64,000 nucleotides of DNA from Opitutia bacterium UBA3534 (GTDB lineage: Bacteria; Verrucomicrobiota; Verrucomicrobiia; Opitutales; UBA3534), in NCBI GenBank assembly GCA_002376875.1, contig DFOT01000003.1, positions 37,191-101,190 on the forward strand, in the 5' to 3' direction. Below, one piece after another: positions 23,559 through 24,616 of this stretch (position 1 is its first letter; the number at the start of each line of letters is the position of its first letter). The position numbers and the translations under genes were made by a program. The notes beneath the pieces were generated by a model. That model did not search any database. It saw nothing but the letters and a program-made list of their open reading frames with translations, and was not told the origin of the DNA.

Positions 23559-23585
23559 TAAAGAAAAGAACAAGAAAGCCGACTT
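23559..23585 (+). promoter_or_regulatory. Candidate sigma-28 (FliA)-type promoter
   Basis: TAAAGAAA (23559..23566), N11, GCCGACTT (23578..23585). The consensus is TAAAGTTT-N11-GCCGATAA. The -10 element ends 26 nt upstream of ATG 23612. Confidence 0.4.
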
Positions 23586-23611
23586 AAATACGGTACCTTA
23601 GCGCACTTACA

Positions 23612-24616
23612 ATGAAAGTTCCCCCCAGACCCTTACAGCCTAGTGGCGGCGGGCATAGGCCCGATAAAAATAAATCTGTTTCTGATTCGAAACAGGCCGA
23701 AGGTGTATTAGGCCCCCAGAAAGAAGGTGATAAACCTCATAAGGTTAAGGTTTCTGGGAAAAAAGGCCCTGTGGTTTCTGGGAAAGAGTCTAAGGAGAAA
23801 TTTAAGCCCAAGAAGCTCGAGCTCAGGCGAGTCCGTAGTCCAGGCTCACTTAAGCGATTTATTAAACGGCTGAAGGCTTGGTTTACCCGTGATGTTCATA
23901 AGGCTTTTTCTTTTAGGAAGCGTCGTAAGGAGTTAACTCAAGACATAATAGAGACTTTAAGAAAAACCTCAGGAGACCATATCCCTCAAGAAGACCCTGT
24001 GACTGGGAAAACGCTGCCTATTAGTGCTACTGTTTGGAAAGATATGGGACGAGGGACCAATTATCATTGGATCGATAAGGATGGCAATTCCCGCTCCTTT
24101 TTATCTCAGGAGGGCACTTATGTGCATGTAGATGCTAAAGATACTCTAATTAAAGCAGTAAAATTTTCTAAAGAGTCTGATTTTGATGAGCATAGTACAC
24201 CTTTAGGCGAATTGGTAGAGACGGTTGTCCAGGAAACGTTTGAGAATGAAGATCAATTGAAATTGTTTAGAGAGGCTGAAAAAGCAGCTCAGCAAGAAAC
24301 ATTTGGTAGTATTATGGGCGAGCTTTCTAAAAAAGGGCAAATTAGAATCCCTGGAATGGAAGCGCCCGACTATGAGTCTGTGATTGATTACAGTTTCTAT
24401 TTTGAAAAAGGAGAGCTTAAGCTACGGGCTGAAAAGAATACGCGTCATTTTGATATTCTTGCAGACCCTGTTGCAGGTAGCATGTTAGAAGTAAAGCCTG
24501 AAACCAGTGAGATGGTTTATGATATTATCCTAAGTTTTCGTTTAGATGAAAAGGGAAATGTTGAGGCAGGGGTAGAGGACGTAAATGTGTCCTTAAGCTA
24601 CGATTTGGTTGTGTGA
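23612..24616 (+). CDS. Orphan 334-aa protein with a highly basic, disordered N-terminal third
   Basis: Long ORF. The first ~110 aa are K/R/G/S/P-rich (GGGHRPDKNKSV...KVKVSGKKGPVVSGKESKEKFKPKK...FRKRRKE). No family was recognised for the C-terminal ~220 aa. Confidence 0.6.
   Translation: MKVPPRPLQPSGGGHRPDKNKSVSDSKQAEGVLGPQKEGDKPHKVKVSGKKGPVVSGKESKEKFKPKKLELRRVRSPGSLKRFIKRLKAWFTRDVHKAFSFRKRRKELTQDIIETLRKTSGDHIPQEDPVTGKTLPISATVWKDMGRGTNYHWIDKDGNSRSFLSQEGTYVHVDAKDTLIKAVKFSKESDFDEHSTPLGELVETVVQETFENEDQLKLFREAEKAAQQETFGSIMGELSKKGQIRIPGMEAPDYESVIDYSFYFEKGELKLRAEKNTRHFDILADPVAGSMLEVKPETSEMVYDIILSFRLDEKGNVEAGVEDVNVSLSYDLVV

What the first reader, a model, noticed from the sequence alone, without database searches (positions are those of the whole stretch)
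23559..24616. Near-consensus sigma-28 promoter drives an orphan basic or disordered protein far from the flagellar genes
Seen in sequence: TAAAGAAA-N11-GCCGACTT (23559..23585) lies 26 nt upstream of ATG 23612. The same architecture, T(A/G)AAG-N14-xCCGAC, precedes the flagellin gene (59525..59551) and the FlgM-like gene (53721..53747). The fixed 10-nt pattern TAAAG-N14-CCGAC is expected only about 0.1 times by chance in both strands of 64 kb under a uniform-base approximation. I did not scan exhaustively. The 334-aa product has no recognisable family. Its first ~110 aa are Lys/Arg/Gly/Ser/Pro-rich and disordered (…KVKVSGKKGPVVSGKESKEKFKPKK…FRKRRKE…). Established background: sigma-28 (FliA) consensus is TAAAGTTT-N11-GCCGATAA, and sigma-28 regulons include non-flagellar, flagellar-T3SS-exported virulence or colonisation factors in Campylobacter (Fed/Cia/FlaC-type) and Yersinia (YplA). 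Inference: this orphan may be a flagellum-co-expressed factor, possibly exported through the flagellar export gate.
Basis: partly seen in the sequence, partly recalled or inferred. Interest (0 to 1): 0.7.

Follow-up and report, generated by a model that had tools for sequence, protein, structure and literature searches.

The report
Flagellar-type promoter on an orphan gene
An uncultured marine verrucomicrobium carries a gene of unknown function behind the same type of late-flagellar (sigma-28) promoter as its flagellin genes, so the gene is probably switched on with the flagellum, but whether its protein is exported through the flagellum cannot be told from sequence.

Summary
The motif is real. 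TAAAGAAA-N11-GCCGACTT lies at 23559..23585, 26 nt upstream of ATG 23612.

Related Opitutales loci and a second flagellin locus of this same genome carry T(A/T)AAG-N15-xCGA(C/T/A) upstream of flagellin, fliD and the gene before fliS. I built a weight matrix from nine of those sites, none from the window. With it the target site scores 18.4 bits. That is rank 1 of 128,000 window positions, and no position among 1.78 million in background DNA reaches it.

The gene is a true orphan, with three sequences among about 15 billion proteins. It is under purifying but relaxed selection (dN/dS 0.33). It has no signal peptide or membrane segment. Its first 75 residues are basic (net +13), an amphipathic helix follows, and the C-terminal domain is acidic and is the best-conserved region. 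No family or fold match was found, and the structure models are unusable (pLDDT 36).

Verdict: co-expression with the flagellum is well supported. Export through the flagellar gate is untested and less likely than not. Non-flagellar sigma-28 targets are already known in several bacteria, so this is a new member of a known kind, of moderate interest.

The parts
23559..23566 (+). -35 element TAAAGAAA of the sigma-28-type promoter
   Evidence: Read directly. It is part of an exact TAAAG-N15-CCGAC match and is identical in sister strain L001.
23578..23585 (+). -10 element GCCGACTT (CGA core; CGACTT is also found in the flagellin promoters of L089 and L090)
   Evidence: The whole site scores 18.4 bits with a matrix built from flagellar sites outside the window, rank 1 in the window, with 0 of 1.78 million background positions reaching it.
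23592..23611 (+). Predicted short leader of about 17-20 nt without a Shine-Dalgarno sequence. The transcription start is inferred, not mapped.
   Evidence: Inferred from the usual distance between a -10 element and the transcription start. Only 7 of 47 genes in the window have a Shine-Dalgarno-like 4-mer. The leader plus the first 50 nt of the coding sequence is unusually unstructured (z = +2.7).
23612..24616 (+). Orphan gene encoding a 334-aa protein
   Evidence: ORF. Full-length homologues at 93% and 38% identity. dN/dS 0.33. Composition typical of the genome.
23612..23836 (+). Residues 1-75: Lys/Gly/Ser/Pro-rich basic region, net charge +13, with a conserved first decapeptide M-K-[VI]-P-x-[RK]-P
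   Evidence: AF2 predicts no secondary structure here, at low confidence.
23837..23977 (+). Residues 76-122: predicted long basic amphipathic helix (SLKRFIKRLKAWFTRDV). The hydrophobic-face residues L80, I84, L87 and W90 are invariant.
24347..24613 (+). Residues 246-334: acidic, beta-rich C-terminal domain, the best-conserved part (53% identity to the distant homologue P0002), ending in the invariant SLSYDLVV
59525..59551 (+). Sigma-28-type promoter of flagellin gene 1 (TAAAGATT-N11-ACCGACCT)
   Evidence: Conserved in L085. Equivalent sites lie at -123 to -163 in 7 of 8 flagellin genes of relatives.
59663..60475 (+). Flagellin gene (true start ATG 59663)
   Evidence: Pfam Flagellin_N and Flagellin_C, NCBIfam alignments starting at ORF residue 26, sequence.
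53721..53747 (-). Sigma-28-type promoter (TGAAGTTT-N11-TCCGACAC) of the operon formed by the pre-fliS gene, fliS and a FlgN/FliT-like gene
   Evidence: Equivalent sites in L089 and L090 (held-out site).
52455..53681 (-). Late flagellar operon: 117-aa protein of unknown family, FliS, and a FlgN/FliT-like protein
   Evidence: Pfam FliS 8e-37; FlgN 6.5e-4, below the curated cut-off. ORFs.

Best explanation
The 27-bp element at 23559..23585 is a functional promoter of the sigma-28 (FliA) class. It drives a monocistronic orphan gene (23612..24616) together with the late flagellar genes (two flagellins and the pre-fliS/fliS operon). The protein would therefore be made only once the cell commits to building filaments.

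Shown: the motif, its position, its rarity, and its use in front of bona fide late flagellar genes in this genome and in relatives.

Inferred: transcription by a FliA-type sigma factor, a start near 23592, and a leader of about 20 nt without a Shine-Dalgarno sequence, whose unstructured start region would allow translation.

The product is a soluble protein without a Sec signal. It consists of a basic flexible N-terminus (net +13 in 75 residues), a basic amphipathic helix, and an acidic, conserved C-terminal domain. My preferred reading, at only about 0.35, is that it stays in the cell. The basic region and helix would tether the C-terminal domain to a polyanionic surface, such as acidic inner-membrane lipids near the motor or nucleic acid, as a lineage-specific accessory or regulator of the motile state. 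Export is the main alternative.
For: - TAAAG-N15-CCGAC occurs twice against 0.10 expected, in front of the target and of flagellin; a one-mismatch copy precedes the fliS operon.
- The same architecture lies upstream of 7 of 8 flagellin genes, of fliD and of the pre-fliS gene in L086-L090.
- Two L090 sites not used for training score 18.0 and 15.2 bits, ranking 1st and 3rd in L090.
- With a matrix trained outside the window the target scores 18.4 bits: rank 1 in the window, 0 of 1.78 million background positions and 0 of 200 Markov simulations reach it.
- No sigma-70-like promoter was found on the + strand of the intergenic region.
- Both boxes are intact in the sister strain.
- The coding sequence is real: full-length homologues exist and dN/dS is 0.33.
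- No membrane segment (maximum hydropathy 0.54); charge layout as described.
- Non-flagellar sigma-28 targets are established elsewhere: modA, flxA, ynjH and ves in E. coli (PMC4183435); hctB and tsp in Chlamydia (PMC12282069).
Against: - No fliA gene could be shown for this genome.
- Conservation of the boxes in the sister strain is uninformative, because the intergenic region is 94% identical overall.
- DNA of the 38%-identical homologue, which would give a real phylogenetic footprint, was unavailable.
- In E. coli many good FliA sites produce no detectable transcript (PMC4183435).
- The intracellular role of the product rests on composition alone. Both structure models are unusable (pLDDT 36).
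Confidence: 0.7

Rival explanations
1. The sigma-28-driven orphan is a late substrate of the flagellar type III export apparatus. Its disordered N-terminus would carry the export signal, and the protein would act outside the cell as an adhesin, an effector or a filament-associated factor.
For: - No Sec signal or membrane segment.
- An unstructured N-terminus whose first 10 residues are better conserved (50%) than the following 110 (21-25%).
- Fast evolution: dN/dS 0.33 against 0-0.06 for housekeeping neighbours, and 38% identity to its only distant homologue, whereas flagellins of other Opitutales are 60-68% identical.
- It would be expressed when the gate accepts late substrates (inference).
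- The same genome carries a CesT-family type III chaperone gene (1.2e-16) followed by a 741-aa orphan directly downstream of its second flagellin.
- There is precedent in YplA (PMC4336687) and in the Campylobacter Fed, CiaI and FlaC proteins (own knowledge; context in PMC4626219).
Against: - No homology to any exported protein or flagellar family.
- No chaperone gene next to it.
- A net charge of +13 in 75 residues is, to my knowledge, atypical of flagellar export signals.
- The CesT operon has a sigma-70-like promoter rather than a sigma-28 one, and it could serve an injectisome that I could not look for.
- The organism is a planktonic surface-ocean bacterium with no known host.
Confidence: 0.2
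2. The product is a sigma-28-controlled binder of nucleic acid, acting on the nucleoid or on RNA. It would be a functional analogue of chlamydial HctB (Hc2), the histone-H1-like protein that sigma-28 switches on late in the cycle of another member of the PVC superphylum.
For: - Residues 1-122 are 29% Lys+Arg, with KPKK- and RKRRK-type stretches, and the net positive charge of the first 75 residues is conserved in all three homologues (+12 to +14) despite only 25% identity.
- Chlamydia's sigma-28 regulon consists of hctB and tsp (PMC12282069).
- Verrucomicrobia and Chlamydiae belong to the same superphylum (own knowledge).
Against: - No match to the Pfam Hc1 or HC2 families, or to any DNA-binding family, even at E-values up to 10.
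- Only the N-terminal third is basic; the conserved C-terminal domain is acidic.
- The RKRRK stretch is not conserved in P0002.
- Basic tails also bind membranes or proteins.
Confidence: 0.1
3. The match is a chance occurrence in an A-rich intergenic region. The gene would then be transcribed by the housekeeping sigma factor and have nothing to do with flagella.
For: - The region is A-rich, and only three sites in the window defined the original pattern.
- Two other matrix hits above 15 bits in the window are intragenic and probably meaningless (16354+, 61923-).
- Good FliA sites without function are common in E. coli (PMC4183435).
- fliA was not demonstrated for this genome.
Against: - A matrix trained only on flagellar promoters outside the window gives this site the top score of the window. 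No position in 894 kb of related genomes and none in 200 simulated windows reaches it.
- The site is correctly oriented, intergenic and 26 nt from the start codon.
- No sigma-70-type alternative was found on that strand.
Confidence: 0.12

Closest known systems
Class 3 (FliA/sigma-28) promoters of Enterobacteria and Bacillus, consensus TAAAGTTT-N11-GCCGATAA as quoted in the finding
   Same: They share the TAAAG -35 element, the 11-nt gap between the two octamers, the CGA core of the -10 element, and use in front of flagellin and filament-cap or chaperone genes.
   Different: In this genome the -10 element often ends in CGAC instead of CGAT, and the A/T-rich extension differs. The target matches 10 of 16 consensus positions. 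The sigma factor itself was not identified.
Non-flagellar members of sigma-28 regulons (E. coli flxA, modA, ynjH, ves; PMC4183435)
   Same: These are genes with no obvious motility function that sit behind an intergenic FliA promoter away from the flagellar clusters.
   Different: There is no sequence relationship to them. This gene is restricted to one narrow verrucomicrobial lineage.
Flagellar-T3SS-exported, flagellum-co-expressed factors (Yersinia YplA, PMC4336687; Campylobacter FedB/CiaI/FlaC, own knowledge)
   Same: Like them it has a sigma-28-type promoter, no Sec signal and a flexible N-terminus.
   Different: There is no homology, no evidence of export, and no known host. The N-terminus is strongly basic.
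Chlamydia trachomatis sigma-28 target hctB (histone-like Hc2; PMC12282069)
   Same: It is a sigma-28-class promoter driving a Lys-rich protein in a bacterium of the PVC superphylum.
   Different: There is no homology. Only the N-terminal third of the target is basic, and this organism is flagellated.

Membership tests
Sigma-28 (FliA)-dependent promoter | A -35 TAAA(G) element and a -10 element with a CGA core, at TAAAG-N15-CCGA spacing | tested here: met
   TAAAGAAA-N11-GCCGACTT at 23559..23585.
Sigma-28 (FliA)-dependent promoter | Intergenic, oriented toward a gene, at a plausible distance from its start codon | tested here: met
   The -10 element ends 26 nt before ATG 23612. The N-terminus aligns from Met1 with the 38%-identical homologue.
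Sigma-28 (FliA)-dependent promoter | The same motif precedes bona fide late flagellar genes of the same genome and lineage | tested here: met
   Found at flagellin 1, at flagellin 2 (L088, same 1,258,858-bp scaffold) and at the pre-fliS operon. Also found at flagellin, fliD and pre-fliS genes in L086, L089 and L090.
Sigma-28 (FliA)-dependent promoter | Scores above background with a model trained on independent sites | tested here: met
   18.4 bits, rank 1 of 128,000 window positions. None of 1.78 million background positions and none of 200 simulations reach it.
Sigma-28 (FliA)-dependent promoter | The genome encodes a FliA-type sigma factor (and usually an anti-sigma factor FlgM) | not testable with these tools
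   None is present in the window or in the held loci. The only sigma factor in the window is of ECF type. The rest of the scaffold could not be fetched. The pre-fliS protein is not demonstrably FlgM.
Sigma-28 (FliA)-dependent promoter | A mapped transcription start and FliA-dependent expression | not testable with these tools
   This needs experiment or metatranscriptome data.
Flagellar-T3SS-exported non-flagellar proteins | No Sec or Tat signal and no membrane segment | tested here: met
   Maximum 19-residue hydropathy is 0.54, and the N-terminus is hydrophilic.
Flagellar-T3SS-exported non-flagellar proteins | A disordered N-terminal export region | tested here: inconclusive
   The composition is low-complexity and AF2 predicts no secondary structure, but at pLDDT around 30. 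No export-signal predictor was available.
Flagellar-T3SS-exported non-flagellar proteins | Homology to a known exported protein, or an adjacent dedicated chaperone | tested here: not met
   No family or PDB match. The neighbours are pyrG and the feoB operon. A CesT-family gene exists, but about 960 kb away.
Flagellar-T3SS-exported non-flagellar proteins | Secretion that depends on the flagellar export gate | not testable with these tools
   This needs experiment.
Chlamydial histone-like proteins Hc1/Hc2 (HctA/HctB) | Sequence membership in the Pfam Hc1 or HC2 families | tested here: not met
   No such hit at E-values up to 10.
   Pfam and NCBIfam give none for the window protein, Pfam none for any of its 4 homologues, and a PDB profile search none.

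The most novel reading that the evidence does not exclude
This free-living surface-ocean verrucomicrobium would use its flagellar type III apparatus as a secretion system for lineage-specific, fast-evolving cargo. One cargo would be the sigma-28-driven 334-aa orphan studied here. Another would be the 741-aa orphan paired with a CesT-family chaperone next to the second flagellin. If so, flagellum-mediated effector export would extend beyond host-associated pathogens, and the conserved C-terminal domain would represent a new fold family.
Probability: 0.15. Interest if true: 0.65.

Novelty: new member of a known kind. Interest (0 to 1): 0.38.

Why it matters
If the reading is right, it gives a first working model of the late-flagellar promoter in marine Opitutales (Verrucomicrobiota). 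It also names one concrete non-structural member of that regulon, a protein family with three known sequences and no detectable relatives. That makes it a specific candidate for asking what else planktonic bacteria switch on when they become motile, and whether flagella export anything besides flagellar parts outside pathogens. The organism is uncultured, so the question is not yet directly testable. Orphan genes behind sigma-28 promoters are not surprising to specialists.

Tried and rejected
- **Literal pattern.** The spacing is N15.
- **Homology searches for the target.** The k-mer/HMMER search, the exhaustive HMMER search of 1.84 billion representatives and the profile search together found only two relatives.
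- **Family and structure libraries.** Pfam to E = 10, NCBIfam, PHROGs, PADLOC and a PDB profile search found nothing credible.
- **Related loci.** Scans of GTDB genomes and JGI metagenomes with the target found none. 80 pyrG loci of Opitutales and other Verrucomicrobiota contain no homologue, by tblastn.
- **Structure prediction.** Both runs, single sequence and 3-sequence alignment, gave pLDDT 36. A Foldseek search of PDB with the model gave no hit below E = 0.17 and TM-scores no higher than 0.19, which is meaningless.
- **DNA of the 38%-identical homologue.** This would have been the decisive footprint, but it could not be retrieved in two attempts.
- **FlgM identity of the pre-fliS gene.** Not supported.
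- **Foreign origin.** Rejected, because GC content and codon usage are typical of the genome.
- **RNA element.** Rfam and tRNA scans of the window found nothing.
- **Relationship among the orphans.** The target, the 480-aa orphan and the 741-aa orphan show no similarity.
- **FliK-like reading.** The two helices and four strands at the C-terminus raised this possibility. I dropped it: there is no Flg_hook hit, and (from general knowledge) the composition and the promoter class do not fit FliK.

Full report
**Observation.** The window reads TAAAGAAA-AGAACAAGAAA-GCCGACTT at 23559..23585, and the -10 octamer ends 26 nt before ATG 23612. TAAAG-N15-CCGAC occurs exactly twice, at 23559 (+) and 59525 (+). 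The expectation is 0.10, and none of 100 dinucleotide shuffles gives two. With one mismatch allowed, TGAAG...CCGAC appears at 53747..53723 (-). The three sites are intergenic and point at the orphan, at the flagellin gene and at a small operon ending in fliS. The flagellin ORF listed from GTG 59588 really starts at ATG 59663, behind AAGGAG.

**Is this the lineage's late flagellar promoter?** PyrG places the organism in the Opitutales (Verrucomicrobiota). The best matches are Coraliomargaritaceae and Puniceicoccaceae MAGs at 75% identity. The window comes from Tara Oceans surface-water assemblies.

I fetched flagellin loci of relatives whose flagellins are 64-67% identical (L086, L089, L090), and of a sister strain (L085). 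L088 turned out to be a second flagellin locus of the same 1,258,858-bp scaffold that carries the window. All share one layout: a ~200-aa gene, a Maf-like gene, fliD, a ~230-aa lipoprotein gene, a ~100-aa gene, fliS and a ~130-aa gene, transcribed divergently from the flagellin.

- T(A/T)AAG-N15-xCGA(C/T/A) lies 123-163 nt upstream of 7 of 8 flagellin genes.
- It lies 66-71 nt upstream of the pre-fliS gene in the window, L085 and L089 (192 nt in L086).
- It lies about 60 nt upstream of fliD in L086 and L089.
- In L090, two sites not used for training score 18.0 bits (fliD) and 15.2 bits (pre-fliS). They rank first and third in that locus, and everything else is below 10 bits.

A weight matrix built from nine sites outside the window gives the target site 18.4 bits. 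That is the best of 128,000 window positions and higher than the window's own flagellin promoter (13.8 bits). No position in 894 kb of Verrucomicrobiota DNA around pyrG (1.78 million positions) reaches that score, and neither does any of 200 first-order Markov simulations of the window. No sigma-70-like promoter was found on the + strand of the 158-nt intergenic region. The target's -10 element, GCCGACTT, shares CGACTT with the flagellin promoters of L089 and L090.

**The gene and its product.** The ORF is genuine.
- A sister strain has a 93%-identical copy in the same synteny.
- An exhaustive HMMER search of 1.84 billion representatives found one further full-length homologue, P0002, at 38% identity. 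It sits on a 1.8-kb contig with the same divergent and convergent gene layout.
- A profile search added nothing. The family therefore has three known sequences.
- dN/dS against the sister strain is 0.33, compared with 0 for pyrG, 0.02 for feoB and 0.06 for kdsA.
- GC content and codon usage are typical of the genome.
- Shine-Dalgarno motifs are rare here (7 of 47 genes), so their absence upstream of this gene is normal. The predicted leader and start region is unusually unstructured (z = +2.7).

The protein has no signal peptide or membrane segment. Residues 1-75 are Lys/Gly/Ser/Pro-rich with net charge +13. All three homologues conserve that charge (+12 to +14) although only 25% of residues are identical. 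The first ten residues are 50% identical. Residues 76-122 are predicted to form a long basic amphipathic helix with an invariant hydrophobic face. Residues 246-334 are acidic and beta-rich. They are the best-conserved part (53% identity) and end in the invariant SLSYDLVV.

No Pfam, NCBIfam, PHROGs, PADLOC or PDB match exists. Both AlphaFold runs gave pLDDT 36, and a Foldseek search found nothing meaningful.

**Mechanism.** The best-supported step is regulatory: the gene belongs to the late flagellar regulon through a sigma-28-class promoter. I could not show that the genome has fliA. None is present in the held sequences, and the rest of the scaffold was out of reach. Box conservation in the sister strain is uninformative because the intergenic region is 94% identical.

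For the product I slightly prefer an intracellular role. In that reading the basic region and the amphipathic helix tether the acidic domain to membrane or nucleic acid. Export through the flagellar gate remains a live alternative at about 0.2. It is helped by the fast evolution, by the conserved N-terminal decapeptide, and by a CesT-family chaperone gene (1.2e-16) followed by a 741-aa orphan directly downstream of the second flagellin of the same genome. That operon, however, has a sigma-70-like promoter, TTGATA-N17-TATAAT. A chlamydial HctB-like role is an attractive parallel within the PVC superphylum (PMC12282069), but there is no homology.

**Comparison and novelty.** Sigma-28 regulons with non-flagellar members are well documented. 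Examples are flxA, modA, ynjH and ves in E. coli, where 30 of 52 FliA sites are intragenic (PMC4183435). Others are hctB and tsp in Chlamydia (PMC12282069) and YplA in Yersinia (PMC4336687). The finding is therefore a new member of a known kind. Its value lies in a usable promoter model for marine Opitutales and in a defined orphan candidate. Interest is moderate, 0.38.

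Noticed in passing
L088 10001..13710 (same 1,258,858-bp scaffold as the window, about 960 kb away): The genome has a second flagellin gene, 64% identical to the first, with TAAAGTTC-N11-TTCGATAT 123 nt upstream of its ATG. 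After it come a terminator-like hairpin, a near-perfect sigma-70-type promoter (TTGATA-N17-TATAAT), a CesT-family type III chaperone gene (Pfam 1.2e-16) and a 741-aa orphan with no family. This looks like a chaperone-cargo pair beside a flagellin.
   Followed up: partly
window 24622..24783 (-): An unlisted 53-aa ORF starts 2 nt after the feoB stop. It has one hydrophobic segment and a GCGGCNC tail, and it weakly matches the FeoB-associated Cys-rich membrane protein family (PF12669, E = 0.003, below the curated cut-off). Its stop codon lies only 5 nt from the stop codon of the target, so the two convergent genes leave no room for a terminator.
   Followed up: partly
window 19147..20589 (-): A second lineage-specific orphan of 480 aa lies on the other side of kdsA-pyrG. 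It also has a basic, low-complexity N-terminus (…GNKRKREKASSARVQRRK…). It matches no family, has dN/dS 0.29, and has no sigma-28-type site.
   Followed up: partly
window 59558..59670 (+): The flagellin leader of about 105 nt is structured (z = -2.1). It contains an 8-10-bp hairpin and a second hairpin with GGA in its loop (GCAACAGGGACGUUGC), plus GGA within the Shine-Dalgarno sequence. This resembles CsrA binding sites. Relative L089 carries csrA-fliW near its flagellar genes.
   Followed up: partly
window 16354..16384 (+) and 61923..61893 (-): Two further matrix hits of 15-16 bits are intragenic. One lies inside a Tad-locus ORF. The other is antisense within the first 60 nt of sufB, pointing toward sufC and fur. 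They may be chance matches or non-canonical sigma-28 sites of the kind seen inside E. coli genes (PMC4183435).
   Followed up: no
window 53328..53681 (-); L086 2882..3193, L089 3240..3533, L090 2335..2628: A conserved family of 97-117-aa proteins lies just upstream of fliS. Its members are only 20-26% identical to the window protein. By eye it shows a FlgM-like pattern (D-x-L … R-x-E-V-V …), but no profile method supports FlgM.
   Followed up: yes
window 56825..56941 compared with L086 6473, L089 6121, L090 5369: In three relatives fliD has its own sigma-28-type promoter. In the window no such site precedes fliD (56824), which is probably read through from the Maf-like gene upstream.
   Followed up: no
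whole window: Only 7 of 47 genes have a Shine-Dalgarno-like 4-mer at -18..-4, and flagellin is one of the few with a strong one (AAGGAG). No tRNA or Rfam family occurs in the 64 kb.
   Followed up: partly
window 2477..3115 (-) and 3203..3173 (-): The only sigma factor gene in the window is of ECF type. A weak sigma-28-like match of 10 bits (CAAAT-N15-GCGACATT) lies 58 nt upstream of it, at a score where chance hits are common.
   Followed up: no
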